A stretch of 14,164 bases of DNA from a virus (IMGVR_UViG_3300028833_000137); one strand, 5' to 3'. Positions 1-14,164 are shown, counted from the stretch's first letter. A program made the numbers and translations. The notes: a model not told the origin generated them from the sequence alone.

Positions 1-1362
1 ATTGTACTGGATGATAATGGCCTTGCTATTTATTCTAGTAGAAATATTACTGTTGGCGTTATGGGAAAAACCTCTATAGAGGGTACCGATGAAACAGTAA
101 ATATTTCCTCTGGTTTTGAATTAAATAGTCAAGGCGACTTTACTGTTGTAACTAAAGAAACTAATGGAGCAAAAACCGGCGCGATTAAATTTTATAGATA
201 TAATAATGAAAATAAGTTAACAGCTGGTGTGGTTATTGATGGTGATGGATTTACTGTAAATACCGGCGGTGCTTTTAATGTACAAAGCAATAATTTTATT
301 TTAAATAGTGAAGCGACCGGTAGTCAGCCCTTGATGAGCATTATGAGAACTAATAATGGTGTTACTTCTGGATTACAATTCGCGGCGAATGGTACTTTAA
401 CTATTACTGGCGAAATTAATGCTACTTCTGGTTGGATTGGTAATAAAAATGACGGATGGTATATTGGGAAAAATACACTAAAAGATTCTAGTGGTAATTC
501 CTATTATGTTGGATATATAGGTAGTAATTCAGATGATAGAAAAGCATCTATTGGAATTAGAAATACGCCAAATAATGGTGATGCTAATTTTAAAAACTTT
601 CCAGCGTTATGGATTGGCGGCACATATGATGAAAATCAAGAACCAGTCGCACAAAATAATGCTTCTCTTAATGCTCTTTTTAGAGTAAATTCTGATGGTA
701 AATTGCATGCTGAAGGTGCATATATAAAAGGAACAATAGAAGCGACTTCTGGTTGGTTTGGTACCGCAGCAGGCTTTCATATTGGGCCTAATGGCACAGG
801 AGCTTTTATTGGAAATAATTCAAATATAAAGCAGGCAACTTTTGGATTAGATACTACTGCAGCTGCGTGGCCTGCTTTTTGGCTAGGTGGAGTGAGATCT
901 ATAGATGATAAAACAATAAATCCGAGTTTGCCTTTTTATGTAACTGGACAAGGGAAGTTGTATGCCTCTGGGGCTACCATTGGTGGCAGTACTAATATTA
1001 ATACTACTGGAAATATTCAGATGAGCGGTGGAGAGTTTTCAGTTTCAACTTCGGTTAATTCTATTGTAATGAACACAAATGGTGTTAAATTAACCGCGAA
1101 TTCTGATGCTGGTAAAGATAATAGCAAAATTATAATTGACGCTGCCACTATTCTATTTCGACCAAATGAACGAGCAGATTCAAAAGACAAATTTTTCAGA
1201 GTTTATGTGGATTCAACACAAGATAATGATGGTCCTGTAGGCATGTATGGCGCTTCTCGAGTACTATGGTTCCGTACAACGGGAAATTACCTTTCAAATC
1301 ACAAGGCATGGCAAATTATTCAAGTTTTGCTAAGTGACAAAGGCTGGACGCCAAGCGAATAA
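1..1362 (+). CDS. Phage tail fibre/spike-like structural protein, C-terminal part (5'-truncated by the window edge)
   Basis: Frame is open from position 1 (IVLDDNGLAIYSSRNITVGV precedes the Met at 61), so the gene starts upstream. It is Gly/Asn/Thr-rich and beta-prone, with two G-x-I-x-ATSGW-x-G repeats and F-x-V-x-x-x-GKL-x-A motifs typical of tail fibre/spike proteins. TAA at 1360-1362 is followed by a terminator. Confidence 0.7.
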   Translation: MVLDDNGLAIYSSRNITVGVMGKTSIEGTDETVNISSGFELNSQGDFTVVTKETNGAKTGAIKFYRYNNENKLTAGVVIDGDGFTVNTGGAFNVQSNNFILNSEATGSQPLMSIMRTNNGVTSGLQFAANGTLTITGEINATSGWIGNKNDGWYIGKNTLKDSSGNSYYVGYIGSNSDDRKASIGIRNTPNNGDANFKNFPALWIGGTYDENQEPVAQNNASLNALFRVNSDGKLHAEGAYIKGTIEATSGWFGTAAGFHIGPNGTGAFIGNNSNIKQATFGLDTTAAAWPAFWLGGVRSIDDKTINPSLPFYVTGQGKLYASGATIGGSTNINTTGNIQMSGGEFSVSTSVNSIVMNTNGVKLTANSDAGKDNSKIIIDAATILFRPNERADSKDKFFRVYVDSTQDNDGPVGMYGASRVLWFRTTGNYLSNHKAWQIIQVLLSDKGWTPSE

Positions 1363-1397
1363 AAACCCCTCTCTCCCGAGAGGGGTTTTTCTTTTTT
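1361..1397. terminator. Bidirectional rho-independent terminator between convergent genes
   Basis: Perfect 13-bp inverted repeat AAAAACCCCTCTC (1361-1373), TCCC loop, GAGAGGGGTTTTT (1378-1390), then CTTTTTT. The A-tract on the left gives a U-tail for minus-strand transcripts. It fills the gap between the stops at 1362 (+) and 1397 (-). Confidence 0.92.
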
Positions 1398-1777
1398 TAT
1401 TCCACAAACGCCTCAATATTATAGACTTGCGCTGGCGTTAGTTCAATATCGCCCATATCATCAAGATTTAACTTATCAGCGTTAATTTCAATTTCAGTAT
1501 TAAGCAAATCATTTAGCTCATTATTACATTCAGTAATCTTATCCTGTTGAAGAATAATATTTCCTTCTTCAGTTTGCTTCATTTCACCGTTTTCATCTCG
1601 TTCTGCATACTTTTCAATAATAATTCTGCGAGACTCGTCAAAAGTAGCACTTTCCTTATCAAGTTCCCTAATTAGGCGAGCCACTCTAAAAGCCGTCTTA
1701 ATAGGCAATGCCTTCATACTAATCTCGCGGAAAATCTGAACATTATTTAGAATATCATTTAAAGTAACTTGAATCAT
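1397..1777 (-). CDS. Hypothetical phage protein, DUF1617-like (126 aa)
   Basis: Acidic helical protein. The segment RLIRELDKE...IIEKYAERDENGE...ECNNELNDLLNTEIEI resembles DUF1617-type phage proteins as I recall them. The ATG overlaps the upstream TGA (ATGA at 1774-1777). Confidence 0.55.
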   Translation of the reverse strand: MIQVTLNDILNNVQIFREISMKALPIKTAFRVARLIRELDKESATFDESRRIIIEKYAERDENGEMKQTEEGNIILQQDKITECNNELNDLLNTEIEINADKLNLDDMGDIELTPAQVYNIEAFVE

Positions 1778-2517
1778 ATATCTTCACCCCATGTAGATTG
1801 TTTAGATTTTATATAATTACAAAAATATTTACCAATACAGATAGCATCTGCTTCATCTTGTGTACATTTTTGTTTGTACCATAATTCAACTTTATCTTGC
1901 GCTTGGCGCTTTTTATTTTCGCGCCCTTTTCCATCACCTACACCGCAATACTTGCGCCATTCACTTGAATAACATAAATCGTGCGCAACACCTTTTTCAA
2001 ATAAAGTGTCTAAAATTACTCCTTGTAAATTAGCAAGTACACGATACATTTCAACCTGATATTTTCCGTTGCTACCAAAGGATTGGAGTTGTATATTTTC
2101 CACTCCTACAAAATCAGGTTCCCATGCTTCAAGCGCGGCTTCAAGCCAATGTTTAATTTCGTTAATGCGGTCGGTTGCTTCTTTACTTTCATCGGCGTGG
2201 TAAGTGCCATAACTTACTAGTGTTCCATTATCATAAATAGAATAACCGCTAATTTTTGTTGCGGCATCAAGCGCAAGAATACGATATGTGTCAATCTTCT
2301 TGATTGGCACTTTATTTTTTTTGACTTTGTATGGATCACCCGCAAGACATTCTTCACAAACTGGATGCTTTCGCCATTGCCCGTAGCTAATGAATTGCGT
2401 GTGACCTTCTGGACACCTCATTTCTAATTCTGTATTTAAGTTTTTATAAGAAGTGCTAATCAGTTTCCAGCCTTCTTCTTCAAGATGATTGGAAACTGAA
2501 TAGACATTTATTGCCAT
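1774..2517 (-). CDS. ruvC: RuvC-like Holliday junction resolvase with N-terminal Zn-finger (247 aa)
   Basis: RNase H-fold RuvC motifs: RILALDAATKISGYS (Asp), FVGVENIQ (Glu), SEWRK and QDEADAICIG (Asp-x-x-Asp). The N-terminal ~60 aa carry CPEGH...CEEC. Confidence 0.8.
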   Translation of the reverse strand: MAINVYSVSNHLEEEGWKLISTSYKNLNTELEMRCPEGHTQFISYGQWRKHPVCEECLAGDPYKVKKNKVPIKKIDTYRILALDAATKISGYSIYDNGTLVSYGTYHADESKEATDRINEIKHWLEAALEAWEPDFVGVENIQLQSFGSNGKYQVEMYRVLANLQGVILDTLFEKGVAHDLCYSSEWRKYCGVGDGKGRENKKRQAQDKVELWYKQKCTQDEADAICIGKYFCNYIKSKQSTWGEDI

Positions 2518-2520: not shown

Positions 2521-3333
2521 TTACTTACCGGTGGAACCAAACCCGCCCTCTCCACGGTCACTAGCAGGTAGAATATCAACTACATCAGCCTTGAACTTAT
2601 AGGAAGGCATAACGAGCATTTGTGCCACACGGTCTCCAGCTTTAATTTCATAATCAGAATCAGAAAGATTGTCATATAACACGCCAAGCTGGCCTCTATA
2701 TTCACTATCAATAATACCAACACTATTTGATAGGCGATTTTGTGTCTTGGCTCCAATACTAGAACGCGGGAAAATCATAGCCATCCAGCCCTCTGGGAGA
2801 GCGATATGGACACCTGTACGAATCATATTGCTGAATGTGTGCGCGGGAAGAGTCATATTATCTGCAGCATAAAGGTCAGCGCAAGCATCTGTTTCGTGTG
2901 CGTAGGTTGGAACGATAGCGCCCTCATCCAACTTGATTGGTAGAACAATATTATAGTTATGATATTGCGCTAATGCCTTATCAAAAATATCATAAAAAAT
3001 TGAAAAGATACCGTCAAAAATTTTGCGCTTGCGTTCAGAGGCCTTTAGTTCATCAATTGCTTCATTGATAGCAATCTTGGATGACTCAACCATTTCCTTT
3101 GCGGCGGAACGCGTAAGCCCTTCTTCATCAAAGTTCTTTAGCATCTCTTTAACAGACTCATCACGAATCTTATCAGTAAATGCGCCGGTAATCATTCCAA
3201 CAATAACATCTATATTTTCATCAGTTAGGTTTTCTTCGGGAATGGCCATAATTTGTTCAATGGCATCCATAACTGGCTGTAAATTAGTATCGTTAGTAAG
3301 CATATCTGCTAGATTAGAAAAATCATTTTCCAT
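2521..3333 (-). CDS. dut: Trimeric dUTPase with ~125 aa N-terminal helical extension (270 aa)
   Basis: All five trimeric dUTPase motifs lie in the C-terminal half: ACADLYA, PRSSIG, GIIDSEYRG, GDRVAQML, RGEGGFGSTG. SD GGAG (3342-3345) is 8 nt before the ATG at 3333. Confidence 0.93.
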   Translation of the reverse strand: MENDFSNLADMLTNDTNLQPVMDAIEQIMAIPEENLTDENIDVIVGMITGAFTDKIRDESVKEMLKNFDEEGLTRSAAKEMVESSKIAINEAIDELKASERKRKIFDGIFSIFYDIFDKALAQYHNYNIVLPIKLDEGAIVPTYAHETDACADLYAADNMTLPAHTFSNMIRTGVHIALPEGWMAMIFPRSSIGAKTQNRLSNSVGIIDSEYRGQLGVLYDNLSDSDYEIKAGDRVAQMLVMPSYKFKADVVDILPASDRGEGGFGSTGK

Positions 3334-3345
3334 TTTATTCTCTCC

Positions 3346-3552
3346 TTATTCTGTGAAAGTTCTCTCTACAGTTACGATAGCCCAACTATCAATAATCTCG
3401 CCCTTGGACTTCTTGTTCTTTAGAACATAGCCAGACTTTGTTAGAGAGTAACCTTCAGTATTTTGATTATTCTTATATTCTTCAATTAGGCGAACAGCCT
3501 CTTCTTCGTCCTCAACACGAAAAGTATCAACAGTCTTTAGTAGCATCTTCAT
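3346..3552 (-). CDS. Small hypothetical phage protein (68 aa, start revised to MKMLLKTVD)
   Basis: AAGGAG lies 10 nt upstream of the ATG at 3552, whereas the ORF-track start at 3576 has no SD. It overlaps the end of the upstream gene, and its TAA forms part of the dut SD (TAAGGAG). Confidence 0.65.
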   Translation of the reverse strand: MKMLLKTVDTFRVEDEEEAVRLIEEYKNNQNTEGYSLTKSGYVLKNKKSKGEIIDSWAIVTVERTFTE

Positions 3553-3817
3553 AATTTTCATTCTCCTTTTTCTCATTTAGTTCTCGTAGATTTTCAATTA
3601 GATTTATATAATTAAGCTTTTTAGCTGTTTCTGAAATAGTTCCCATTTTCGCGCGGCCAGATTTACCAAGTTTCTTTGCAAATGCTCTGCGTTGCGCGCG
3701 GTTATGGAATTGTAATTGCTCTGCTTTATTTTCAATCGCAGTCGTAGTTTCAGCTTCAATTGACTCTAGATTATCATGCTCTGTAGTTAAGCCAGTAACA
3801 AAAATTTCTTCGCTCAT
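3527..3817 (-). CDS. Hypothetical protein (96 aa) with acidic N-half and basic NRAQRRA motif
   Basis: GGAGG (3825-3829) is 7 nt upstream of the ATG. ATGA overlap with the upstream gene at 3814-3817. Confidence 0.65.
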   Translation of the reverse strand: MSEEIFVTGLTTEHDNLESIEAETTTAIENKAEQLQFHNRAQRRAFAKKLGKSGRAKMGTISETAKKLNYINLIENLRELNEKKENENYEDATKDC

Positions 3818-4107: not shown

Positions 4108-5120
4108 TAGCCACCACCGCCTACATTTTTATTATATCCAAATTCTTGGCTTTTAAAGAAATCTATATAATATTTTTCCAATTCATTTAACTGTTCTTTC
4201 TCACAATAAATAATTACTTCAATAGTCCAATTCCAAAATCCAGTTTTCCATATCTCATGGTGTACTGCTTGGTCCGCGATTGTTTTTATACCAATTGAAC
4301 TTTTAAAATGGTCGGCAATTCGTTTTTTAACATTGGTACTTTTACCAATATAGCATTTACCAGTATCAAGATTTGTAATTTTATAAATGCCAGGTTTATC
4401 TTCAATGCCAACCCGTTTAAAAGTTCCATCTATATAAGGTTTCACATATTCAGCCCATACAAGTTTATTTATAATATCGGGATGCTGGACTTTTTGAGAA
4501 ACAGTAGTAATTAAAAAGTTAATATCTTCTTTATATTCATCAGGAACTTGTATTGTATAAAATAGGCGTTCCTGTTGTTCCATTTCATACTGCCGCAAAG
4601 GAAGTAATAATCCCTCAAAACGCTCTTGTTGCGCGCGAGTCTCTGCCAAAATACTTTCTTGGCTTTCGCGTGCGGAATCAATCACTTTTTGGACTTCTTG
4701 TCTAAATTTATGTTCTTTCTCTAATTCCTCACGCTCAAACTGAATATATTTAGTTTTTAAGTTTTCTTCTTTTTCGCGCCACAATCGTTCAAAATCTGTA
4801 TCAATTTCTGACTGGCGTGTAAGTTTTTGATTTTCAAAATATAAATCTAAATCTGTAGTTTTTTTATTTAACTCTCGTTTATACTTATTTTGAATTTCAA
4901 TTATTTTATCATTATATTCGCTTACTAAATCAGTTTGTGTCTTAACATCTTTTATTAATTCATCTTTTTGAAAATGAAGTTTTTCTACTTGATTTTGGGC
5001 ATCAGAAATTTCTTTTTTATAGATTTCTAATTGTTTATTATCAACAGAAATCTTTTGTCTTAATTTTATACCTAATATAATTATTATAATTACAAGTATT
5101 CCTATTATTCCATATAACAT
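4107..5120 (-). CDS. Membrane-anchored coiled-coil protein with C-terminal GIY-YIG nuclease domain (337 aa)
   Basis: Hydrophobic N-terminus (LYGIIGILVIIIIILGIKL) is followed by ~160 aa of E/K/Q-rich coiled-coil-like sequence. The C-terminus has GIYKITN...CYIGKS...KKRIADH...NELEKYYI...GYN, with the catalytic Tyr, Arg, Glu and Asn present. Confidence 0.85.
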   Translation of the reverse strand: MLYGIIGILVIIIIILGIKLRQKISVDNKQLEIYKKEISDAQNQVEKLHFQKDELIKDVKTQTDLVSEYNDKIIEIQNKYKRELNKKTTDLDLYFENQKLTRQSEIDTDFERLWREKEENLKTKYIQFEREELEKEHKFRQEVQKVIDSARESQESILAETRAQQERFEGLLLPLRQYEMEQQERLFYTIQVPDEYKEDINFLITTVSQKVQHPDIINKLVWAEYVKPYIDGTFKRVGIEDKPGIYKITNLDTGKCYIGKSTNVKKRIADHFKSSIGIKTIADQAVHHEIWKTGFWNWTIEVIIYCEKEQLNELEKYYIDFFKSQEFGYNKNVGGGG

Positions 5121-5153
5121 CTACATCACAACCACTCCTTTACTTTACAATTA

Positions 5154-5182
5154 ATTATAGCATGTTTTTTTGAAAAAGTCAA
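5154..5182 (-). promoter_or_regulatory. SigA/sigma70 promoter for the GIY-YIG-to-DUF1617 operon
   Basis: Minus strand: TTGACT (5182-5177), 17 nt spacer, TGcTATAAT extended -10 (hexamer 5159-5154). SD AAGGAG at 5140-5135. Confidence 0.85.
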
Positions 5183-5553: not shown

Positions 5554-6027
5554 ATTTAAATAAATAATTCGTTGATTAGAAGAACCACGAAGTGGTAGAG
5601 TAATATCTCGTTTATCTTGTTCGTAACGACCATCAATTAAACAGTCTATATGCTCTAAAATGAAATGGATATATGGGTCATCTTCTTCAAATAATTCTTC
5701 AATTGTATAACCGGTCCAGACATAAATAATTAAATCTGGATATGTATCTTTGCAATCGTGAATTAAATCCGCAACAGCGATACGATTTTCTTTGTTTAAA
5801 GGCTCTCCACCTAAAATAGACAAACGTCTTTGAACTCCATTCTTATTCATTTTAACAAGAATTTCTTTTATTATATCGCTTGTTAATTCTTCTCCAAAAT
5901 TAAAATCTTGTGCTTCTGGATTATGACAACCGGGGCAATGGAAGTGGCATCCAGAAAAATATACTGAGAGGGAGATACCGGGCGCGGCCGCGGTATCGTC
6001 CCAATAGATTCCAGCAATACGTGCCAT
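5542..6027 (-). CDS. nrdG: Anaerobic ribonucleotide reductase activating enzyme (radical SAM)
   Basis: CxxxCxxC motif (GCHFHCPGCHNPEAQDF), LSILGGEP, YVWTGY and LIDGRY...LRGSSNQR. TAATG-coupled to nrdD. Confidence 0.95.
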   Translation of the reverse strand: MARIAGIYWDDTAAAPGISLSVYFSGCHFHCPGCHNPEAQDFNFGEELTSDIIKEILVKMNKNGVQRRLSILGGEPLNKENRIAVADLIHDCKDTYPDLIIYVWTGYTIEELFEEDDPYIHFILEHIDCLIDGRYEQDKRDITLPLRGSSNQRIIYLNEQA

Positions 6028-8273
6028 TAGTGTATATGCTCCACTCTTGCTTCAGTTTCTTTTTGCTTGCCCCAGTTGAATGCCTTTTTATATGAACCTG
6101 TTAAGTAGCCAGTAACTCTGCGTAATTGAGAAATATTATGACTACCGCATTGAGGACATACATCATTCATTTCATCTTGATAACCACAATCTTCACAGCA
6201 ATCTAATTTTAAATTACAAGCAAAATAAGGGATGTCGTGGTCCATCGCATAATTAACAATGGTTTCAAGGGCTTCAAGATTATTTTTAACTCCTGTTGGA
6301 AGTTCAACATAAGTAATACATCCAGCACTAGAATACCCTGTAAGCTGGCTCTCAATATCAATTTTATCAAACACAGAAATGTTATGCCATACTGGAACAT
6401 GGATACTATTGGTGAAATATTCGTGGTCGCTTACATTTTTAATTTCGCCATATTTCTTTTGAAACTTCTTCATAGCGGTGTAGCAAAGATTTTCCGCAGG
6501 AGTATAATATACACCGAAGTTTAACTTATACTCTTTCTTAAATTCGGCACATCTATCTTTGAATAACTGTTCAATACGCTTTGCTAGTTCCATGCCTTTT
6601 TCAGTAGTATGATCGCAGCCAATTAAAATTTGAAGTGTTTCCGCTAAACCAAGTTGACCGATTACTATGGTTCCATGCTTTAGCGCAGAACGAATACCTT
6701 CTTCTGGATGATAACCCAGCATTGTTCCATTTTCATACATAAACTTCGCGGATGCTGGACTCTGGCCGCAAATCCATTCAAAGCGTTCTAATAGCATATC
6801 TTTGGCTTCGTGAATTTTTCTATCTAAAATTTTTAAGAAAATTTCTTCAATCGGATCTTGACAACCATTCTCTACATCTTGTTTTGCTAACATAGCAAGT
6901 GTGGGCATAATAATAGTGACAGGACAAATATTACCACGGCCATCTTTGGTTTGAGGATTAGTGCCTTCTTCCGCATTTATATCAGCACCATTCGCTGTTC
7001 TACAACCCATAGTTGAAAAATAAGTCTTTGGGTCATTCTTATCATATCCAGCATTACCAGACCAATCAATATTTGCGTAATTAGGATAAATACGTTGTGC
7101 TGTTGACTTTAAAGCTAATTGATACATATCATAGTTTGGGTCACCTGGCGCACGGTTAATACCCTTACCAAGCTGGAAAATACCGCAAGGGAAGATAGGA
7201 GTTTTATGTAATTTACCTACACCTTTAATAGAACCTTCAAGTAGCGCGCGAATTACCATACGGCCTTCTGGTAGTGTGCAAGTTCCATAGTTAATTGAAG
7301 TGAATGGAAGTTGATTGCCGCTACGAGATTGAAGCGTATTGAGATTGTGATACATTCCCTCTACTGCTTGTTGAAGCTCGCGCGTGGTCATTTCCAGAGC
7401 ATATTTATAAATATCTTCACAATCATCGTATTGAATATATTCATCAATTGGTCGCGGCTCAGTTTCATATTTCCATTCATTCGCAGGAAAAAGATTTTTT
7501 CCAATATATTTAATTCCATCATTCCAATGCTTCATAAAACTCTTTCTTACATAAGGTACCATAGTCCAGTCTAAATGAGTCGCGGAAACACCACCAAACT
7601 GCATCAATGATTGAAGTTGGAAAATTACTGCTACAAGCTGAAAAGCCGTATTAATAGAATTAGCCGGCCGCACATCAGTCTGTCTAGTATTGAAACCTTC
7701 TGCTAATAACTTATCAAAAGGAATAGATAAACAATTGTGCATACCAACAGCATAAGCACTTAAATCATGAATATAAATTTCATTATTTAAATGATTGTTC
7801 TTCGCCATTTCTGACATACAGAAATCAAGAGCATACTGCTTCATCATTTCATCTGACGCTTCACCTACACGGCCACCAAATGAATGTTCGTCAACATTAG
7901 CATTTTGATTTTGAACATTAGAAGCATTTAGCTTTTCACTGATGGAGCGGATAAATTCATCAGAGCAAGAACGCATTACGCCTCTCTTATAACGATAACG
8001 AATGTAGGCCTTTTCTACAAGGCGGTCAAAAGCCGCTAAATCATCTTCAACTAATTCTTGTATATTTTCAACAGTAAGATATTTCCCACTATCAGCGAAG
8101 GTTTGATTAGCTACACGCTCAATACTGTCTGCTATAATAGTAAAATATTCTGGGTCCTCACGCGTAGAATCATTATACACTTGAATCCAAGCCTTTCTAA
8201 TAGCATTTATAATTTTAGATTTATCAAAATCAACTTCTGAACCATTTCTTTTAATAACTCTTATCATTTTCAT
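6027..8273 (-). CDS. nrdD: Class III anaerobic ribonucleoside-triphosphate reductase (about 746-748 aa; start revised to 8273 or 8267)
   Basis: N-terminal ATP cone (VIKRNGSEVDFDKSKIINAIRKA), HNC and MGCRT active-site cysteines, Zn site CEDC/CPQC and glycyl-radical loop RRVTGYL. GGAGG at 8282-8278 supports a start at 8273 or 8267 rather than 8396. Confidence 0.96.
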   Translation of the reverse strand: MKMIRVIKRNGSEVDFDKSKIINAIRKAWIQVYNDSTREDPEYFTIIADSIERVANQTFADSGKYLTVENIQELVEDDLAAFDRLVEKAYIRYRYKRGVMRSCSDEFIRSISEKLNASNVQNQNANVDEHSFGGRVGEASDEMMKQYALDFCMSEMAKNNHLNNEIYIHDLSAYAVGMHNCLSIPFDKLLAEGFNTRQTDVRPANSINTAFQLVAVIFQLQSLMQFGGVSATHLDWTMVPYVRKSFMKHWNDGIKYIGKNLFPANEWKYETEPRPIDEYIQYDDCEDIYKYALEMTTRELQQAVEGMYHNLNTLQSRSGNQLPFTSINYGTCTLPEGRMVIRALLEGSIKGVGKLHKTPIFPCGIFQLGKGINRAPGDPNYDMYQLALKSTAQRIYPNYANIDWSGNAGYDKNDPKTYFSTMGCRTANGADINAEEGTNPQTKDGRGNICPVTIIMPTLAMLAKQDVENGCQDPIEEIFLKILDRKIHEAKDMLLERFEWICGQSPASAKFMYENGTMLGYHPEEGIRSALKHGTIVIGQLGLAETLQILIGCDHTTEKGMELAKRIEQLFKDRCAEFKKEYKLNFGVYYTPAENLCYTAMKKFQKKYGEIKNVSDHEYFTNSIHVPVWHNISVFDKIDIESQLTGYSSAGCITYVELPTGVKNNLEALETIVNYAMDHDIPYFACNLKLDCCEDCGYQDEMNDVCPQCGSHNISQLRRVTGYLTGSYKKAFNWGKQKETEARVEHIH

Positions 8274-8499
8274 CTTCCCTCCAAATACCACCGGTGCTAA
8301 AATGGAAACCACAATAAGGACAGGTATCATTTGTAATTTCCCAATTATATTTTGCGCTTGCGTGCGGACAATGTTTTTGATTATCAATAATGGCAAGCTT
8401 TATTTTTTGTATGGTATCTTTTCGCTCCATAGTGGAAAGAGCCATTCTCAATTCTTTATTAAGTTGTTCACGAGTTTGAATAATATCATCAATCCTCAT
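8251..8499 (-). CDS. Small Zn-ribbon protein (82 aa; alternative start 8508 gives 85 aa)
   Basis: N-terminal helix followed by CPH-x14-CPYC. The ATG at 8499 forms an ATGA overlap with the upstream stop. AGGAGG at 8517-8512. The 3' end overlaps the nrdD start. Confidence 0.7.
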   Translation of the reverse strand: MRIDDIIQTREQLNKELRMALSTMERKDTIQKIKLAIIDNQKHCPHASAKYNWEITNDTCPYCGFHFSTGGIWREDENDKSY

Positions 8500-9575
8500 A
8501 TTCTCCATCTTCCTCCTTTCATAATCATTTCATGCGATTGCATAAACAAACTTTTTGCAGATGGATAAAATTTTAATAATAACTCTCTTTCATCCATCGC
8601 AGGATTTTTTTTCTTTGTATTTATCCTGTCATTAAGCACAATAGAATAATTATCTTTTCGCGTTAAATCCGCCCACCGCTCAATACGAACAGATAAATTT
8701 GCTAATGGATTTTTATAGCCTATAAATGGTGGTTCATATAAAATTTTTATTGGTATATCAACACTCCAAAGACAATACAATAAATTCATTTTATATATCA
8801 TGTCTTTAAAGTATTGAAAATTTGTAGCAAAGTTTCCACCAAGTTGTATATAAACATTAGAATAAGGAGTAATATCGGCCTTTAAATAATTTTTATATTT
8901 ATTTGTCATATAATACACTTCTTCTAATGGTATATCTAAATCAAATATAATAGTATTTGAACGAGTCATTTTTGGATAATTTCTTATTTCAAAAAATTCG
9001 GATAACTTTTTACAAATAATTGGATGTATTCTTACAATAGACGATGGTTTTCTACTGCTAATATCTTCTAATATATCACGCCAATTTGGGTAGAAAAATT
9101 CGCGGTCATACATTATTAACCGTTTATTTGACATAATTGGCGGAACTGGTAATTTTTCTTCGCCTGCATAACAACGATAGTAGCTATTATCCAATACATT
9201 AGCTATGACTTTTGCCTTTATACCATCATCATATTTTCCTTTAAGATATTCTTTATAGATTGCCGGTCGCGGGATAGTAAAATCTATAATTGAATTTTCA
9301 AATGGAATATATTTTCCATTTGTAAAAGCTGTGCCGCCATATTCTACAACGGGCGAGCGCAAGAATTGCTCTGGCACTTTTGGAACTGCGTGCCCTTCAC
9401 TAAAAAAATAAATCTTTTCATATCCAGATAAATCTTCTTCATCCAAAGACAACAATCTACAAAACCGATTTTCTTCGGTTTTGTAGTAAGTTGCTAATTT
9501 CATTATTTCAAGATTAGGAATAATAAATTTGGAGGAAGAAAAATTAGATATATCATAATCAACTAGTCCTATCAT
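8496..9575 (-). CDS. Hypothetical protein (359 aa), probable degenerate homolog of a phage radical-SAM-like family
   Basis: GGAGG is 7 nt before the ATG, with an ATGA overlap with dnaE. MIGLVDYD...PNLEIMKLATYYK, YGGTAF and LIMYD...NWRDILEDI resemble the phage family starting MKIGLIDVD..FPNLALMK (from memory). CxxxCxxC is absent. The CDS itself is well supported; the family call is tentative. Confidence 0.55.
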   Translation of the reverse strand: MIGLVDYDISNFSSSKFIIPNLEIMKLATYYKTEENRFCRLLSLDEEDLSGYEKIYFFSEGHAVPKVPEQFLRSPVVEYGGTAFTNGKYIPFENSIIDFTIPRPAIYKEYLKGKYDDGIKAKVIANVLDNSYYRCYAGEEKLPVPPIMSNKRLIMYDREFFYPNWRDILEDISSRKPSSIVRIHPIICKKLSEFFEIRNYPKMTRSNTIIFDLDIPLEEVYYMTNKYKNYLKADITPYSNVYIQLGGNFATNFQYFKDMIYKMNLLYCLWSVDIPIKILYEPPFIGYKNPLANLSVRIERWADLTRKDNYSIVLNDRINTKKKNPAMDERELLLKFYPSAKSLFMQSHEMIMKGGRWRI

Positions 9576-12500
9576 TCTTCTACCTCCGCGCGCTCATACT
9601 GGAAAGTTAAATTTCCATAATCATCAACATTTATTATTTTTGAAATAATTGGATAGATTGACTGTTTCTTTTTCTTTGGAATAAAGTCGTTTCCGCGACG
9701 AATACCTTGAACCATTAATTTTGTCCCGCGCGAGAACCAGCTCTTTTCAATAACATGCTTTTTGCCATCATCGCCGCGCTGGCTTAATTGTTTGTCATAA
9801 ATCGCATATTGATTCTTATAAACCTTTACATTTACAACACCTGTTGGGGTTAAAAGTGTAACAGTATTGCGATTCTTATCCTTATCAATTACAGTTCCAA
9901 TTATTTTAAATAATTTATATACTTTTATTTCTTGTCCGTTACTTCCAGGGAAACTATATTCAATTTCTGGTTCTTCTGATAATTTAAAGAAATCATCAAA
10001 ATCATTCTTCGCTTTTGCCAATTCATGCTCGTGATAATAAAATGAGATACTATCCATTTCCCATTTACTGATATTACCATCTGCATATTTATCAGCGATT
10101 TCATCATATAAAGCTTTATTTAACCTTGCCAATGCCTCTTCTTTGTTATCTTTTAAATATTGACGCATTGGCTCCATTGCTTTTTTATATATATTATCCC
10201 AAGTTTTTTGTAAAACTCTTGCGCCATCTTCAACAATATCTATGTCAAAATGATTATCAATAAAGTTAATCGCGGCTTCATTTAACTCATAATAAATTCC
10301 ATCTTTGCAGGTCTTTAGAAACTTATTGAATGAAAATAACTTCGCATAGAATTGCATATCAGTTGGTATCTGATTTTTCGCAATCAACATTGACATATTT
10401 TGAAGAGTCAATCTTTGCTTTTTATCCGCAATCATGTCAATATACTTTGCCATGATTTGCTCGCGCGGAATATTTTCAATATTATCAAATGCGCCGGACT
10501 TAATTAAATTTATCATTTGAAGTTTATTTACTTTAATTTTCATTAAGAAATCCTTCAATGATTCATATGGTCGCATAGCCATAATTTCATTAATCTTGTC
10601 TGTGGAGACGCGAGTGATGCCGCGTAGCCCATAAAGAATAACATTATCTTTTGCAATGGGTGTAAATGTAAAAGAAGACTGGTTGATATCAGGTGGAGAT
10701 ACTTTAATTCCATAATCGCCCATTTTACCAATAATAGAGGCGATGCGTCCATAATCAACGACTTTATTTTTTTTCTTCTTTTTATCTGCCGTTGCTTCAG
10801 TTGTCTCTTCATTTGCTTCTTCCCATTCTTCCTCATCAGGCTCTTCTTCATATTCTACACTGTTTTCAGTAAGAATCGCTTGAATTTCATCTTCATCTTC
10901 TTCATCAATATCTTCCGCTTGAACGCCACCACTATCTACAATTAAATTAGCTGTATTCCAATACACAATTGGATACCTATATGCCAGATTCATTTCTTGA
11001 AGAGCAATAATAGAATAAGCATAAGTATGACTTGCATTAAAACCATATCCGCGGCTTAATGCTATTTGAATGTCCCAAACATAATGACAAAATCTTTTGC
11101 TAAGATTCTTTTCCTCTACTCGCTCATAAAATTCTTTTGTTAATTGCTCATATTCTTTTGGATTCTTCTTTGCAATACTTTTACGAAGTCTATCTGCCCA
11201 CTGCAAGTCCCAGCCGCCGCATTCAGGTAGCTGAACCAATTTCATAAATTGTTCCTGTGTAATTGACAAACCGTCTGAAACATCTAATTGCTCGTGAAGC
11301 AATTCTCGCTCTTTATTTGAAAGACCATATTGAATCATTTCAGTTTCCCAATCATTAGGATGCTTACGAAAACGAGCATATTTATCTAGTGGTGCTTCTG
11401 CGCCCTTTTCAGAAGCCATTAGACGAATAACAGAATTTAAAGTGGCTAGGTCATCAACATTCTTAGGGTGAGTTAATGAAATGCCGCGGATACCGCTCGC
11501 TTTTTCCATTTGAAAAAGGCTAACGATTTTATGCTCGTCTACTAACTTCCACATTTCTTCATCATCACGAAGAATGTTATAAACGCCAAGCGCTTTTTCA
11601 TAAGTTTCACGCAAAGTAGGATATTGTTTAATATATCCATCTTTAATTAGCAGTTCAAGACAAGTTTGAATTTTATCTGCCGCTTCAACTGATAGAAGGT
11701 CCATTTTGATTTCTGAAACATCTTCCAAATCGTGAAGCTCAAACTGAGTAATAACTGTTCCATCGGGTGCGCGCATAAGTGCGCTAGATTCAGTGAAATC
11801 CTTATCTTTAAATACTACACCACCAGCGTGAATACCATAACCACAAATTAGGCCTTCAATTTTACTTGCGACTTCCCATAATTTGTCATACTTATTTATT
11901 TCTTCAACAAATGTTGGATTTGGTTTAATACCATTTTCTTCATCACCATAATACATTTGATGTAATGTATATGCTTGGCCACGCTCTTGCGTTATTAGAG
12001 AAGAAATATACTGGGCATTATCTACATCAATTCCCAAACCACGACATGCAGTAAGAATTGCAGATTTTGATTTCTCTACTTTAAATGTCGCAACATTTGA
12101 TACTCGGTTCTCGCCATAATATTTTCTTAAATGTTCCAATACTTGTGCGCGCTTAATACCAGAAATGTCTACATCAATATCAAGAACAGACACACGCGCA
12201 GGATTAAGGAAACGCCAAGGATACATGGCAGTCTTTTCACGCAGAGCATTAATTTGAATAATGTCTAGCGCGTATAGAAGTAAGAAGCCACCACCAGAAC
12301 CACGCGCGGGCATAACTAATGTTCCAGCATTCCAACATTCATCAATGATTTTTTGAAGGTTTAAGAAATAGGCAGACCAACGTGCTTTATTTACTTCGCT
12401 TGATTCCCATGTCATTTCAAGACATTCGTTTAATGCGTTATACGCTTTATCATTCTGTAAATCTCTATGTCTTTCAATTCCATCCAATACAGCCCATGAT

Positions 12501-13543
12501 AGAATGTTATCAGCATTATATTGAGAATATACAAATTTTTCTAGGGCTGGCATTTGCTTAATGCCCCATAAAATTCTTTCATCTCCAGGGTCATTATAAT
12601 CTCGCCAAGGTAGATTAGGAATTTCTAGCGGCTTTAGTATTGAGAAATCTTCACATCTATCTTTAATTTCTCTGATATAATAATACGCGGTTTCAATTTC
12701 TTCTTTTTCAAGATAAGGAAAGAACGAACGAATTTCTTCATCATCCATCATATAAGTTGTTTCATAGAAACTTCTTACTTCGCGCTCGCCATCTTGTGCG
12801 TTAAGAAACGATTCATGGATAAATGAATCTTCTGGCCGCAGATAATGACTATCAGTTGTGATTATATATGGTAGTTTTAATTCTTTCGCTATCTTAATAA
12901 GATGCTGATTAACAAAAATTTGCTCTTTATTGTTAGATGGCTGTAATTCAAGATAAAAATTGCCACGACCAAAAATATCTTCTATATATAAACACCAGCT
13001 TTTAGCTGTCTTATAAAATTCTTCATCACCAGTATCCATATATCTTAAAAGAAATTTATCAAGTTGTGAACCAAGACATGCTGATGATGCAATCAAATGT
13101 CCTTGATTTGGTTTCACAATTTCCTTTAAATCTCTATAATAAGTTGGGCGTCTCCTTAATCTACGACTAATATAAGAACGACGCCACGCGCGAGTAGAAA
13201 GTTCACAAATCTGATGATAACCTTCCAAATCACGACAAAGAAGAATAAAGTGGAAATACCTATCTTTATTCTTATCATAATTTGTCGCGTTTAAATCATT
13301 CCGTGTAAGATAAATTTCATTACCGCGAATGAGTTTAAAATTTGGATGTTCCTTTTTAATTTTATTATAATATTTTTCAGCTTTAATATAACTTGAAATA
13401 GTTTCGTGGTCTGTGATTGCTACGCATTCATGACCTAAATTAATCGCCGTGTCAATTAGAGAATTTACTTTATTAATACAGTCTCGTAAAGTCTCATTGC
13501 TATAATCCGTGTGATTATGAAGACTACCTGGGTATTTACTCAC
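9572..13543 (-). CDS. dnaE: DNA polymerase III alpha subunit, DnaE type (1323 aa, GTG start)
   Basis: PHP motifs (LHNHTDYS, AITDH, GNE, HFILL, SSACLG, TTDSHY), polymerase motifs (ARGSGGG, FLNPARVSVLDIDVD, IHAGGVV, KMDLL, YGFNASH, PPDINQS) and a C-terminal OB-like region. SD AAAGGAAG is 7 nt upstream. Confidence 0.96.
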   Translation of the reverse strand: MSKYPGSLHNHTDYSNETLRDCINKVNSLIDTAINLGHECVAITDHETISSYIKAEKYYNKIKKEHPNFKLIRGNEIYLTRNDLNATNYDKNKDRYFHFILLCRDLEGYHQICELSTRAWRRSYISRRLRRRPTYYRDLKEIVKPNQGHLIASSACLGSQLDKFLLRYMDTGDEEFYKTAKSWCLYIEDIFGRGNFYLELQPSNNKEQIFVNQHLIKIAKELKLPYIITTDSHYLRPEDSFIHESFLNAQDGEREVRSFYETTYMMDDEEIRSFFPYLEKEEIETAYYYIREIKDRCEDFSILKPLEIPNLPWRDYNDPGDERILWGIKQMPALEKFVYSQYNADNILSWAVLDGIERHRDLQNDKAYNALNECLEMTWESSEVNKARWSAYFLNLQKIIDECWNAGTLVMPARGSGGGFLLLYALDIIQINALREKTAMYPWRFLNPARVSVLDIDVDISGIKRAQVLEHLRKYYGENRVSNVATFKVEKSKSAILTACRGLGIDVDNAQYISSLITQERGQAYTLHQMYYGDEENGIKPNPTFVEEINKYDKLWEVASKIEGLICGYGIHAGGVVFKDKDFTESSALMRAPDGTVITQFELHDLEDVSEIKMDLLSVEAADKIQTCLELLIKDGYIKQYPTLRETYEKALGVYNILRDDEEMWKLVDEHKIVSLFQMEKASGIRGISLTHPKNVDDLATLNSVIRLMASEKGAEAPLDKYARFRKHPNDWETEMIQYGLSNKERELLHEQLDVSDGLSITQEQFMKLVQLPECGGWDLQWADRLRKSIAKKNPKEYEQLTKEFYERVEEKNLSKRFCHYVWDIQIALSRGYGFNASHTYAYSIIALQEMNLAYRYPIVYWNTANLIVDSGGVQAEDIDEEDEDEIQAILTENSVEYEEEPDEEEWEEANEETTEATADKKKKKNKVVDYGRIASIIGKMGDYGIKVSPPDINQSSFTFTPIAKDNVILYGLRGITRVSTDKINEIMAMRPYESLKDFLMKIKVNKLQMINLIKSGAFDNIENIPREQIMAKYIDMIADKKQRLTLQNMSMLIAKNQIPTDMQFYAKLFSFNKFLKTCKDGIYYELNEAAINFIDNHFDIDIVEDGARVLQKTWDNIYKKAMEPMRQYLKDNKEEALARLNKALYDEIADKYADGNISKWEMDSISFYYHEHELAKAKNDFDDFFKLSEEPEIEYSFPGSNGQEIKVYKLFKIIGTVIDKDKNRNTVTLLTPTGVVNVKVYKNQYAIYDKQLSQRGDDGKKHVIEKSWFSRGTKLMVQGIRRGNDFIPKKKKQSIYPIISKIINVDDYGNLTFQYERAEVEE

Positions 13544-13573
13544 ACAATCACTTCCTTTATTTATTCTATAATT

Positions 13574-13602
13574 ATTATATCATAAAATTATAGTTTTGTC
13601 AA
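13574..13602 (-). promoter_or_regulatory. Perfect-consensus SigA promoter for the dnaE operon
   Basis: Minus strand: TTGACA (13602-13597, containing the recJ TGA stop), 17 nt spacer, TGaTATAAT (hexamer 13579-13574). Confidence 0.9.
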
Positions 13603-14164
13603 AAGTCATACTTATTTTCATCCTTTAAAAGTTCATAATCATCAATAAACACTTGAATTGATGTGCGGCCAGCGAAAGTATTTAGATTTGCGCGCCCATA
13701 AATTGTAAGTTTATCAGTTCTATTATTCATAACAGCGTCAACAAAATCCATATCCTTGAACCTTACATAATCAACACCATTACAAGAAATCTTCATGCTA
13801 TCTTTATTTGCGCCCATAGCCATAACATTTGAAAGTGTAATATTTTTAATTACAAATTTAATTTCATCTATATGATTACCAAAAAATTCTGGATGGGAGG
13901 CTAGCACTGTAAGTAATTCAATATTATTATCGTTAGCGTCAAGTATATAATCTACAGTGTAACATTTTTTAAAATCATCGTCATTAAGAACTTCATTACT
14001 ATAATTTAATAGCCGTTCATCTAATGTGCTATTAATTCCAAAGCCGGCCGCTGCATCATGGCCTGCCACATAGTTCATTAAATTACTTTCTTCAAGGAAT
14101 TGTTTAAAACTAGGTAGACCTGCAAAATTTCCACTACTACGAATACTTCCGTTAATTTCGCCCT
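13599..14164 (-). CDS. recJ: RecJ-like DHH/DHHA1 ssDNA exonuclease, C-terminal part (5'-truncated by the window edge)
   Basis: The frame stays open past 14078 to the window edge (GEINGSIRSSGNFAGLPSFKQFLEESNL-MNYVAGHDAAAGFGI). GSIRS and GHxxAAG are the RecJ DHHA1 signatures, followed by an OB-like tail (GRANLNTFAGRTSIQVFIDD). Confidence 0.85.
   Translation of the reverse strand, partial: GEINGSIRSSGNFAGLPSFKQFLEESNLMNYVAGHDAAAGFGINSTLDERLLNYSNEVLNDDDFKKCYTVDYILDANDNNIELLTVLASHPEFFGNHIDEIKFVIKNITLSNVMAMGANKDSMKISCNGVDYVRFKDMDFVDAVMNNRTDKLTIYGRANLNTFAGRTSIQVFIDDYELLKDENKYDF

What the first reader, a model, noticed from the sequence alone, without database searches (positions are those of the whole stretch)
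1..14164. Strong excess of alternating CGCG/GCGC words in an AT-rich genome, built from rare synonymous codons
Manual counts give about 57 CGCG and 51 GCGC, against roughly 10-12 each expected at about 33% GC. Same-composition controls are much lower (CCGG about 13, GGCC about 21). There are 13 runs of 6 or more alternating C/G, where fewer than 1 is expected: 3650, 3694, 4631, 7244, 7379, 9587, 9727, 10462, 11769, 12147, 12303, 13187 and 13690. In the sites checked, the word is formed by codons that AT-rich genes normally avoid (dnaE TCG-CGC-GGG for SRG, CCC-GCG-CGT for PAR, ACT-CGC-GCG for TRA), so protein sequence alone is unlikely to explain it. Inference: a site-creating or site-preserving process, analogous to cyanobacterial HIP1 or Vsr-type repair bias. 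Candidates include a phage methyltransferase or base-modification system with biased repair, or binding sites for a phage DNA-binding/packaging protein.
Basis: partly seen in the sequence, partly recalled or inferred. Interest (0 to 1): 0.72.

Follow-up and report, generated by a model that had tools for sequence, protein, structure and literature searches.

The report
Clade-wide G/C clustering inflates CGCG/GCGC
The many CGCG and GCGC words in this AT-rich rumen phage are real and far above chance, but they come from a diffuse habit, shared by the whole phage group, of putting G and C next to existing CG/GC steps, not from a methylase, repair or binding-site system.

Summary
All counts are confirmed: 57 CGCG, 52 GCGC and 13 alternating runs of 6 or more. 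They far exceed chance (18 and 26 expected in dinucleotide-preserving shuffles, 0 of 200 reach the observed counts).

The window lies in a 57.7 kb fragment of an uncultured rumen phage of roughly 170-185 kb, with an SPbeta-like replication module.

On the contig, the excess is 3.1x base composition. It is 1.7x after synonymous shuffling, and 1.36x (CGCG) and 1.15x (GCGC) after shuffles that also keep dinucleotides. Against its own trinucleotides GCGC is under-represented (0.79).

The unit of bias is CGC/GCG (1.9x). It is raised in every codon phase that can vary, and the same ranking appears in pooled intergenic DNA. CCGC, CGCC and CGGC are raised almost as much.

Nearly all of 68 relatives share the excess. 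Eight unrelated AT-rich phages do not.

Sites are randomly spaced and turn over fast: 17% are shared by four close genomes, yet counts stay steady.

Among 16 near-complete relatives there is no Vsr and no N4/N6 methylase above threshold. The only C5 methylase is M.HhaI-like and sits in the one relative that has lost GCGC.

Some AT-rich Bacilli chromosomes of a candidate host order show the same CGCG bias.

Verdict: a genome signature, cause unresolved. The scan reached the same reading before on another genome (e1-5427854).

The parts
1..14164 (.). Diffuse excess of CGCG (57) and GCGC (52): 69 independent places, randomly spaced (mean gap 200, sd 216), in all three codon phases
3650..3655 (.). 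alternating run CGCGCG inside the 96-aa ORF 3527-3817 (-)
3694..3700 (.). alternating run GCGCGCG inside the 96-aa ORF 3527-3817 (-)
4631..4637 (.). alternating run GCGCGCG inside the GIY-YIG ORF 4107-5120 (-)
7244..7250 (.). alternating run GCGCGCG inside nrdD (6027-8396, -)
7379..7384 (.). alternating run CGCGCG inside nrdD
9587..9593 (.). alternating run CGCGCGC at the 3' end of dnaE
9727..9732 (.). alternating run CGCGCG in dnaE (TCG-CGC-GGG, Ser-Arg-Gly)
10462..10467 (.). alternating run CGCGCG in dnaE
11769..11774 (.). alternating run GCGCGC in dnaE
12147..12152 (.). alternating run GCGCGC in dnaE
12303..12308 (.). alternating run CGCGCG in dnaE (CCC-GCG-CGT, Pro-Ala-Arg)
13187..13192 (.). 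alternating run CGCGCG in dnaE (ACT-CGC-GCG, Thr-Arg-Ala)
13690..13695 (.). alternating run GCGCGC in the RecJ-like ORF (13599 to the window end, -)
9572..13543 (-). dnaE/YorL-type DNA polymerase III alpha (1323 aa). It holds 25 CGCG and 19 GCGC, 11 per kb
6027..8396 (-). anaerobic ribonucleotide reductase nrdD (789 aa); context gene

Best explanation
The CGCG/GCGC excess is one face of a genome-wide oligonucleotide signature at the DNA level, shared by this whole clade of rumen phages. It is not a site-specific system. G and C at freely variable positions sit preferentially beside an existing CpG or GpC. As a result the trinucleotides CGC/GCG are about 1.9x expectation, and every all-G/C word that contains both a CG and a GC step is inflated; the alternating words are simply the extreme. 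Shown: individual sites decay and are re-made quickly while the count per genome stays constant, and W->S changes are about twice as frequent next to CG/GC/GG. Shown: restriction avoidance acts on top of this. It has stripped TCGA, GATC, ACGT, TGCA, GTAC and CATG from this lineage, and GCGC itself from a sister lineage, but it has left CGCG/GCGC alone here. Inferred: the bias reflects the neighbour-dependent mutation and repair environment, or weak selection, that the phages share with their AT-rich Bacilli-type hosts. Some chromosomes of that kind carry the same CGCG signature. Whether mutation bias or selection sets it is not resolved.
For: Scale of the bias. On the contig CGCG is 3.06x and GCGC 3.12x base composition, but only 1.23x and 0.79x their trinucleotide (maximal-order Markov) expectation. 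CGC/GCG are 1.91x. CCGC/GCGG are 2.57x, CGCC/GGCG 2.41x and CGGC/GCCG 1.96x. Words without a GC step (CCGG, CCCC, CCCG) are 0.7-0.85x.

DNA level. Against synonymous shuffles, CGC and GCG are raised in every phase that can vary: C|GC 1.70, GC|G 1.20, CG|C 1.98, G|CG 1.85. Third-position G+C is 0.41 before CG and 0.36 before GC, against 0.22 overall. The same ranking of all-G/C 4-mers appears in 71.5 kb of pooled intergenic DNA.

Clade-wide and specific. Nearly all of 68 relatives (DnaE 46-98% identical) show 2-5x, with shuffle-resistant ratios of 1.5-2.7. T4, Staphylococcus phage K, A511, phiEF24C, P-SSM2, H1, 949 and SPbeta show 0-1.2x.

Turnover. Sites are conserved no better than other all-G/C words. 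Only 20 of about 115 are shared by four genomes that are 86-90% identical, yet counts stay at 103-127 per genome. Synonymous W->S is 0.109 against 0.049 and 0.094 against 0.042 where it can make CGC/GCG (p 2e-4 and 6e-4). The rate is also raised before CG, GC and GG.

No dedicated machinery. Sites are spaced at random. Only one of 34 relatives has a C5 methylase. None of 16 near-complete relatives has Vsr or an above-threshold N6_N4 methylase.

Dispensable. The sister genome G002 (DnaE 97% identical) keeps only 9 GCGC in 39 kb.

Host-like. Chromosomes G042, G049, G053 and G055 belong to the order of the only bacterial bin that holds a phage-like contig. Their CGCG is 1.8-3.2x base composition and 1.25-2.7x synonymous shuffles, with near-identical dinucleotide ratios.
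Against: The cause is not pinned down. The one clear mutational hot spot found (GT->GC, equal to AC->GC, about 3x) is equally present in T4-like phages, which lack the excess, so it cannot be sufficient. A 4-mer-specific residue remains: NNC|GCG is 61 against 26 expected (z 9.4), above C|GCA and C|GCT. CGCGCG is 25 against 10.8 even after dinucleotide-preserving shuffles. In several distant relatives GCGC/CGCG are more enriched than CCGC. The host is unknown: the link to Bacilli rests on one binned contig, and most sampled genomes of that order lack the excess (median 0.62 and 0.86). 'Intergenic' DNA was defined by the absence of ORFs of 50 aa or more, so it may hold small genes and terminator stems. 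Only 34% of this phage genome is held, so a modification gene in the unseen part cannot be excluded.
Confidence: 0.6

Rival explanations
1. A site-specific creating or preserving system of the kind the first reader proposed. A C5 or N4 cytosine methylase acting on GCGC/CGCG, together with very-short-patch (Vsr-type) repair, or a HIP1-like process, steadily converts near-sites into sites.
For: The excess survives codon-preserving shuffles. Gains of CGC/GCG are about twice as frequent as other W->S changes. An M.HhaI-like methylase does circulate in the clade. An earlier, unchecked note reports a methylase in the unseen part of this genome.
Against: No C5 methylase is found in 33 of 34 relatives, including 15 near-complete GCGC-rich ones. 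No Vsr and no above-threshold N6_N4 methylase are found in 16 near-complete relatives, and none in the 57.7 kb held. The one methylase-bearing genome is the one depleted of GCGC. Transition neighbours TGCG, CGCA, CACG and CGTG are at 0.96-1.10. Losses and gains hit inner and outer positions alike. Non-palindromic words are equally enriched, and GCGC is 0.79x its trinucleotide expectation.
Confidence: 0.05
2. A side effect of restriction avoidance. Because TGCA, AGCT, TCGA and ACGT are purged, A/T-ending codons before GCN and CGN codons are replaced by G/C-ending ones, which inflates CGC/GCG and hence CGCG/GCGC.
For: Avoidance is strong. TCGA has 2 sites in the window against 43 expected. On the contig TGCA is 93 against 175, ACGT 57 against 95 and AGCT 206 against 260. 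T|GCA and A|GCT are depleted while C|GCN is raised.
Against: A Markov-chain (MCMC) null of synonymous swaps that holds seven avoided palindromes at their observed counts gives CGCG 97 and GCGC 102, against 157 and 161 observed. The unconstrained null gives 91.5 and 99. A|GCG and T|GCG fall instead of rising. Relatives with little TCGA or TGCA avoidance keep the excess (L008, L031, L047).
Confidence: 0.04
3. Translation-level codon-pair bias. Phage and host tRNAs favour particular adjacent codons such as NNC-GCG and GCG-CGN.
For: The largest residual is a codon-junction effect: NNC|GCG is 2.3x. The G3|C1 junction is 1.5x. The phage carries many tRNA genes according to earlier notes.
Against: Enrichment is seen in all variable phases and in both mirror-image contexts. 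It is also seen in intergenic DNA with the same ranking. The substitution bias is strand-symmetric: T->C after G at codon positions 2-3 equals A->G before C across the codon junction.
Confidence: 0.07
4. Selection for the words themselves as physical or functional elements. Examples are short alternating-CG, Z-DNA-prone G/C clamps that help packaging, replication or transcription of AT-rich DNA, or sites for a phage DNA-binding protein.
For: Alternating hexamers are 2.3-4.7x codon-aware nulls. The steady count despite fast decay needs a restoring force. The excess is absent from eight other AT-rich phages.
Against: Spacing is random, with no strand or frame preference and no clustering at intergenic or regulatory places. 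Density ranges from 0 to 24 per kb among genes. G002 lives with almost no GCGC and half the CGCG. L033 has no excess at all.
Confidence: 0.08
5. An error signature of the clade's own YorL/DnaE-type replicase. Uncorrected A:T->G:C transitions at ApC/GpT create GpC, and thereby CGC/GCG.
For: T->C after G is 0.145 against 0.04-0.06, and A->G before C is 0.133 against 0.035-0.075. This was replicated in a distant quartet (odds ratio 2.7, p 2e-15; odds ratio 2.3, p 3e-6). GpC is 1.46 and ApC/GpT 0.77 relative to expectation. All four single transitions that give GCGC, and the two inner ones that give CGCG, are of this type. Neighbour-dependent polymerase errors are documented in bacteria (PMC11890065, PMC6330053).
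Against: The same hot spot, of the same size, is present in T4, RB32, RB14 and RB51, which use a family-B polymerase and have no excess. The reverse change GC->GT is also raised. SPbeta, with a related DnaE, is depleted of CGCG. Bacterial chromosomes with the bias keep MutS.
Confidence: 0.12

Closest known systems
Genomic signature: dinucleotide and oligonucleotide relative abundance with context-dependent codon bias, shared between phages and their hosts
   Same: The bias is genome-wide and strand-symmetric, and present in coding and non-coding DNA. It is shared across a whole clade and by some candidate host-order chromosomes. Sites are maintained statistically, not positionally.
   Different: The direction is unusual for an AT-rich phage. 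Eight comparison phages are neutral or strongly depleted for CGCG/GCGC. From memory, unverified here: the junction pattern nnCGCn is usually described as avoided in bacteria. Here C|GC is 1.7x.
HIP1 (GCGATCGC) and other highly iterated palindromes of cyanobacteria
   Same: A G/C-rich palindrome is far above compositional expectation in coding DNA and is built partly from less-used codons.
   Different: HIP1 is one specific 8-mer standing out from its variants and is linked to cognate methylases. Here the enrichment is at trinucleotide level, non-palindromic words share it, GCGC is below its own trinucleotide expectation, and no methylase is associated.
Vsr / very-short-patch repair bias (E. 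coli Dcm-Vsr: CCWGG up, CTAG down)
   Same: Both involve a process that re-creates G/C at particular neighbourhoods. Gains of CGC/GCG are about twice the background rate.
   Different: There is no Vsr gene and no partner methylase in the relatives, no depletion of T-containing neighbours, and no position specificity.
Restriction-site avoidance in phage genomes
   Same: This operates clearly in this genome on TCGA, GATC, ACGT, TGCA, GTAC and CATG, and on GCGC in sister genomes (G002, partly L043, L024, L038). It differs between genomes about 90% identical.
   Different: It explains the depleted words and why CGCG/GCGC counts vary among relatives. It does not explain the excess itself.
Earlier scan finding e1-5427854 (CGCG excess in another AT-rich phage genome)
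   Same: It reaches the same conclusion: clade-wide side-by-side placement of G and C at silent positions, with no methylase, repair gene, spacing or site conservation.
   Different: That report singled out GCGGCCGC as a possible true iterated element. Here it occurs only 3 times in 57.7 kb, each time encoding Ala-Ala-Ala.

Membership tests
Highly iterated palindrome (HIP1-like) | One specific palindrome stands far above its same-composition and one-off variants | tested here: not met
   CCGC/GCGG is 2.57x, CGCC/GGCG 2.41x and CGGC/GCCG 1.96x, against 3.1x for CGCG/GCGC. GCGC is 0.79x and CGCG 1.23x their trinucleotide expectation. Ratios to codon-aware nulls are similar for CCGC and CGGC.
Highly iterated palindrome (HIP1-like) | A cognate DNA methylase is encoded with it | tested here: not met
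   PF00145 is absent from 33 of 34 relatives. PF01555 is absent above threshold from 16 near-complete relatives. Neither is in the 57.7 kb held. Two thirds of this genome is unseen.
Vsr-type very-short-patch repair bias | A Vsr endonuclease and its partner C5 methylase are present | tested here: not met
   PF03852 is absent from 16 near-complete relatives. A C5 methylase occurs only in G002.
Vsr-type very-short-patch repair bias | The T-containing deamination products of the site are depleted, and gains occur only at the methylated position | tested here: not met
   Against the dinucleotide-preserving null, TGCG is 0.97, CGCA 1.10, CACG 0.96, CGTG 1.03, GCAC 1.09 and GTGC 0.83. Inner and outer positions change alike.
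Functional binding or packaging sites | Positions are conserved among relatives, or placement is non-random | tested here: not met
   17% of sites are shared by four close genomes, against 55% for GAAG/CTTC. Conservation equals that of other all-G/C words. Gaps are exponential and the index of dispersion is 0.83-1.32.
Genome signature / neighbour-dependent silent-site bias | The same bias occurs in all codon phases, on both strands and in non-coding DNA | tested here: met
   Caveat: 'intergenic' was defined only by the absence of ORFs of 50 aa or more.
Genome signature / neighbour-dependent silent-site bias | It is shared by relatives across deep divergence and kept at steady state by turnover | tested here: met
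   68 loci with DnaE 46-98% identical. Counts are steady at 103-127 with 87 singleton sites and 52 sites present in three of four genomes.
Genome signature / neighbour-dependent silent-site bias | It is shared with the host chromosome | tested here: inconclusive
   The host is unknown. The MAG G001 that holds a phage-like contig has only 1.2x and 1.6x. Four of 17 sampled genomes of its order show a shuffle-resistant CGCG excess. No spacer-like matches were found.
Restriction-site avoidance (for the depleted palindromes) | Short palindromes fall below codon-aware expectation, and differently in close relatives | tested here: met
   TCGA is 0.28, TGCA 0.53 and ACGT 0.60 of the dinucleotide-preserving null. 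TCGA has 0 sites in G000 against 11-12 in L012 over the same 20 kb. GCGC is 0.30x in L007.
M.HhaI-type (GCGC) C5 methylase, for the gene L077:1495-2439 of relative G002 | A full-length PF00145 domain with a target-recognition region like that of M.HhaI | tested here: inconclusive
   PF00145 scores 2e-48 over positions 2-323 of 324. The best solved relative is M.HhaI, at 3.5e-35 over residues 14-289, including the GGQG.R.YS and TL.A.GGG stretches. Specificity was not assayed.

The most novel reading that the evidence does not exclude
This phage clade, and some AT-rich rumen Bacilli, are subject to a still unidentified DNA-level process that actively converts A/T to G/C next to CpG/GpC. It would be a methylase-independent, short-patch, GC-biased mismatch-processing or replication bias. 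Alternatively they are under selection for short alternating-CG clamps. Either would make CGCG/GCGC the readout of a new mutational or structural mechanism rather than inert composition.
Probability: 0.12. Interest if true: 0.6.

Novelty: new member of a known kind. Interest (0 to 1): 0.3.

Why it matters
The result removes a tempting false lead: no hidden methylase, repair or binding-site system sits behind the CGCG/GCGC words.

It gives a usable compositional marker. In this large, uncultured rumen phage clade CGC/GCG are about 1.9x and CGCG/GCGC about 3x expectation. Eight other AT-rich phages, mostly of Firmicutes, are neutral or depleted. The marker could help with binning and with host assignment to the subset of AT-rich Bacilli that share it.

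It also shows restriction pressure re-sculpting 4-mer content between genomes about 90% identical. The clean example is a sister phage that both carries an M.HhaI-like methylase and has lost nearly all GCGC.

The unexplained part is what sets the CGC/GCG preference. That is a modest open question about neighbour-dependent mutation versus selection.

Tried and rejected
1. Gene-to-gene or codon-position composition differences. Per-gene and per-codon-position base expectations stay at 42-54 for the contig, against 157 and 161 observed.
2. Regional G+C clustering of codons. Third-position G+C autocorrelation is only 0.026 at lag 1 and about 0 beyond lag 2.
3. Side effect of palindrome avoidance. 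The constrained MCMC null gives 97 and 102.
4. Vsr-type neighbour depletion. None is seen.
5. A clade-specific GT->GC hot spot. It is real and replicated, but equally present in T4-like phages.
6. Loss of mismatch repair in bacteria that carry the bias. MutS domain I is present in G042, G049 and G055.
7. Host identification by spacer-like matches of the window in six Bacilli genomes. Only weak chance-level hits were found. A genome-collection scan with NrdD returned one phage-like contig binned in a rumen Bacilli MAG and one distant hit.
8. GCGGCCGC as an iterated element in this genome. There are only 3 copies, all encoding Ala-Ala-Ala.
9. Deamination as the sole cause of GCGC loss in G002. 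Inner against outer C changes are 29:17, against a 21:18 baseline (p 0.5).
10. A second quartet (L034, L048, L057, L025) was too divergent to give a signal.
12. A literature search for a described CGCG/GCGC excess in phages found nothing relevant. The E. coli mismatch-repair-deficient spectrum papers I recalled could not be retrieved, so that comparison rests on a review (PMC6330053) and on PMC11890065 only.

Full report
WHAT THE WINDOW IS. The 14,164 bases are positions 8343-22506 (minus strand) of a single 57,694-base virus record. CheckV rates the record 34% complete. The window encodes:
- a YorL/DnaE-type polymerase (9572-13543, -);
- NrdD and NrdG;
- a dUTPase-domain protein;
- a GIY-YIG protein;
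- part of a RecJ-like exonuclease.

The polymerase is 37% identical to SPbeta YorL. The neighbouring genes (an AAA_24 protein, a DnaB-like helicase, a RecJ-like protein) follow the SPbeta yorG-yorL order. A scan of IMG/VR returned 68 related loci, with DnaE 46-98% identical. They come from contigs of up to 184 kb, several with terminal repeats. So this is a large clade of uncultured phages. One relative is binned in a water-deer rumen MAG, and an earlier scan note calls the genome a gut/rumen phage.

THE OBSERVATION. All counts and all 13 run coordinates are exact. Dinucleotide-preserving shuffles give CGCG 18.4 +/- 4.1 (observed 57) and GCGC 26.1 +/- 4.6 (observed 52). None of 200 shuffles reaches the observed values. 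The words overlap, so the 109 words occupy 69 independent places.

HOW MUCH EACH LAYER EXPLAINS. These figures are for the 41 ORF-defined genes of the contig, 95% coding.

| Null model | CGCG | GCGC |
|---|---|---|
| Base composition | 49 | 49 |
| Per-gene or per-codon-position composition | 42-54 | 42-54 |
| Amino-acid sequence plus codon usage (synonymous shuffle) | 91.5 | 99 |
| Also keeping every dinucleotide | 115 | 140 |
| Observed | 157 | 161 |

- The hexamer CGCGCG is 25, against 5.3 (synonymous shuffle) and 10.8 (dinucleotides kept).
- It shrinks, though, from 3.1x to 1.7x, and then to 1.36x (CGCG) and 1.15x (GCGC).
- Against the maximal-order Markov expectation, CGCG is 1.23 and GCGC 0.79.
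- So almost everything is already present at the trinucleotide level: CGC/GCG are 1.91x base composition and 1.43x their dinucleotide expectation.

IT IS NOT SPECIFIC TO THE ALTERNATING PALINDROMES.
- CCGC/GCGG (2.57x), CGCC/GGCG (2.41x) and CGGC/GCCG (1.96x) follow closely.
- Words lacking a GpC step (CCGG 0.85, CCCC and CCCG 0.69) do not.
- Runs of G/C six or more long are 1.5-1.9x the synonymous-shuffle expectation.
- Codon usage itself carries the bias. GCG (RSCU 0.67) is two to three times commoner than ACG, TCG or CCG (0.20-0.30). CGC (1.34) is about three times commoner than other fourfold NNC codons.

IT ACTS ON DNA, NOT ON TRANSLATION.
- Against synonymous shuffles, CGC and GCG are raised in every phase that can vary, including mirror-image contexts: C|GC 1.70 and GC|G 1.20; CG|C 1.98 and G|CG 1.85.
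- Third-position G+C is 0.41 before CG and 0.36 before GC, against 0.22 overall.
- The ranking of all sixteen all-G/C tetramers is reproduced in 71.5 kb of pooled ORF-free DNA from the clade: GCGC 3.2x, CGCG 2.9x, CCGC 3.0x, GGCC 1.4x, CCGG 0.9x.

RESTRICTION AVOIDANCE IS STRONG BUT IS NOT THE CAUSE.
- TCGA occurs twice in the window against 43 expected, and 17 times in the whole contig.
- TGCA, ACGT, AGCT, GTAC, CATG and GATC are all well below codon-aware expectation.
- A Markov-chain (MCMC) null of synonymous swaps that holds seven of these palindromes at their observed counts raises CGCG only from 91.5 to 97, and GCGC from 99 to 102.

THE BIAS IS CLADE-WIDE AND UNUSUAL.
- Nearly all 68 relatives show 2-5x.
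- Codon-shuffle-resistant ratios are 1.5-2.7 in relatives as distant as 47-52% DnaE identity.
- Eight unrelated AT-rich phages (31-37% G+C) show no excess. T4 is neutral (0.89 and 1.02; ratio about 1 to synonymous shuffles). Staphylococcus phage K, Listeria phage A511, phiEF24C, P-SSM2, Lactococcus phage 949, SPbeta and Enterococcus phage H1 are mostly strongly depleted.
- So the excess is not what any AT-rich phage shows.

SITES TURN OVER; THEY ARE NOT PRESERVED.
- Against four relatives 78-90% identical in DNA, CGCG/GCGC positions are kept about as often as other all-G/C words (0.33-0.58 against 0.33-0.58), and less often than 4-mers in general.
- In a four-genome alignment only 20 of about 115 sites per genome are shared by all four (17%), against 55% for GAAG/CTTC. 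Yet each genome holds 103-127 sites, with 87 singletons and 52 present in three of four.
- Changes polarised on terminal branches show synonymous W->S substitutions 2.3 times as frequent where they can create CGC/GCG (p 2e-4 and 6e-4), and 84% of those did create them. Losses are not slowed.
- The rise in W->S holds before CG, GC and GG alike.
What is created, however, is G/C next to G/C, not a particular site.

NO MACHINERY.

| Gene family | Where searched | Result |
|---|---|---|
| C5 methylase (PF00145) | the 57.7 kb held | absent |
| C5 methylase (PF00145) | 34 relatives | absent from 33; present only in G002 |
| N6_N4 methylase (PF01555) | the 57.7 kb held and 16 near-complete relatives | absent above threshold |
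| Vsr (PF03852) | 16 near-complete relatives | absent |

Two further points fit this:
- Transition neighbours of both words sit at 0.83-1.10 of expectation.
- Sites are spaced as a random scatter, with gap mean 200 and sd 216.

A TELLING SISTER GENOME. G002 (locus L007; 181 kb, complete, DnaE 97% identical) has 9 GCGC in 39 kb sampled at three places. Its sisters have 60-70 per 24 kb. Only 1 of 70 GCGC sites of this genome is kept there. G002 is also the only relative with a C5 methylase. That gene's best solved relative is M.HhaI (GCGC), at E 3.5e-35, with close agreement through the target-recognition stretches. Three conclusions follow:
- GCGC is dispensable.
- Where a GCGC methylase exists, the word is depleted, not enriched.
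- Counts of these words respond to restriction pressure like those of any other palindrome. L043, L024 and L038 are partly depleted without a methylase.

SEARCH FOR THE CAUSE.
- A strong strand-symmetric hot spot exists. T->C after G is 0.145 against 0.04-0.06, and its complement A->G before C is 0.133 against 0.035-0.075.
- It was replicated in an independent quartet from a distant branch (p 2e-15 and 3e-6).
- It fits the dinucleotide signature (GpC 1.46, ApC/GpT 0.77), and it is the route of all 18 single-transition gains seen.
- Published work shows that neighbour-dependent polymerase errors shape bacterial spectra, and can shape triplet frequencies (PMC11890065; PMC6330053).
- However, T4, RB32, RB14 and RB51 show the same hot spot at the same strength without any excess. 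So it is generic and not sufficient.

THE HOST SIDE.
- The only bacterial bin with a phage-like contig is a rumen 'Bacilli bacterium' MAG. Its chromosome has a weaker version of the bias: CGC 1.37x, CCGC 2.0x, CGCG 1.2x, GCGC 1.6x.
- Among 17 sampled genomes of the same order the median is 0.62 (CGCG) and 0.86 (GCGC). Four of them (G042, G049, G053, G055) carry it.
- On 60-69 kb from each of those four, CGCG is 1.8-3.2x base composition and 1.25-2.7x synonymous shuffles. G042 and G053 have dinucleotide ratios almost identical to the phage's.
- Loss of MutS does not track the bias.
- No spacer-like matches tie any of these genomes to the phage.

CONCLUSION. It is not a highly iterated palindrome, a Vsr-type footprint, a methylase signature or a set of binding sites. 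It is a diffuse, DNA-level, trinucleotide-scale signature that places G and C beside CpG/GpC. The signature is common to a large rumen phage clade and to some AT-rich Bacilli, is maintained by rapid turnover, and is locally overridden by restriction avoidance. Whether neighbour-dependent mutation and repair or weak selection sets it remains open. A small residue specific to alternating words (NNC|GCG at 2.3x, CGCGCG at 2.3x after all controls) keeps a more interesting reading alive at low probability. An earlier agent of this scan reached the same reading on another genome (e1-5427854). I tested its claims independently here and they hold, except that GCGGCCGC is not notable in this genome.

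Noticed in passing
L077:1495-2439 (+), L007 and L092 (all in relative G002 = IMGVR_UViG_3300031867_004305): This complete sister phage (DnaE 97% identical) is the only one of 34 relatives with a C5 methylase. The gene is M.HhaI-like, and its stop overlaps the start of a nucleoside 2-deoxyribosyltransferase gene. The genome has lost nearly all GCGC: 9 sites in 39 kb, against 60-70 per 24 kb in its sisters. Methylase and site purge in the same genome is unexplained. Candidates are a host GCGC restriction enzyme plus an acquired methylase, or m5C decay.
   Followed up: partly
window 1-14164; only sites at 1158 and 1257: TCGA occurs twice against 43 expected. Over the same roughly 20 kb of aligned DNA this genome has no TCGA while the sister genome L012 (about 90% identical) has 11-12. 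This points to very recent, lineage-specific restriction avoidance. GATC is near zero in many more distant relatives.
   Followed up: partly
contig G000:C1:28715-41806 (-) and 21145-27147 (-), outside the window (L003, L002): A 4363-aa ORF carries a PhageMin_Tail domain at residues 458-669, so it is an unusually long tape-measure-type protein. Next to it lies a 2000-aa ORF with no Pfam match.
   Followed up: partly
window 5984-5991; contig 50675 and 57246: The NotI word GCGGCCGC occurs 3 times in 57.7 kb (about 0.05 expected), each time encoding Ala-Ala-Ala. Relatives carry 0-7 copies per locus (about 5-25 kb). An earlier scan report treated it as a possible iterated element in another genome. 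Here it looks like part of the same G/C clustering.
   Followed up: partly
quartets G000/L012/L005/L011, L036/L049/L058/L066 and T4/RB32/RB14/RB51: Synonymous T->C after G, and A->G before C (that is, GT/AC -> GC), run 2-3 times faster than in other contexts in all three phage groups. The groups have unrelated polymerases, so this looks like a generic strand-symmetric hot spot.
   Followed up: yes
L087 (G001:C8, 14.4 kb): One contig of the rumen Bacilli MAG has no CGCG, no GCGC and no GATC at all, with CpG at 0.57, unlike the rest of the bin. It is probably another mobile element or a mis-binned contig.
   Followed up: no
window 8496-14164, with contig 2798-8908 (L001) upstream: The replication module has the SPbeta gene order: AAA_24/Sak4-like, a small ORF, a DnaB-like helicase, an ORF, a RecJ-like exonuclease, then YorL-type DnaE. 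Here it is followed by a 359-aa ORF without a Pfam match, and then nrdD-nrdG.
   Followed up: partly
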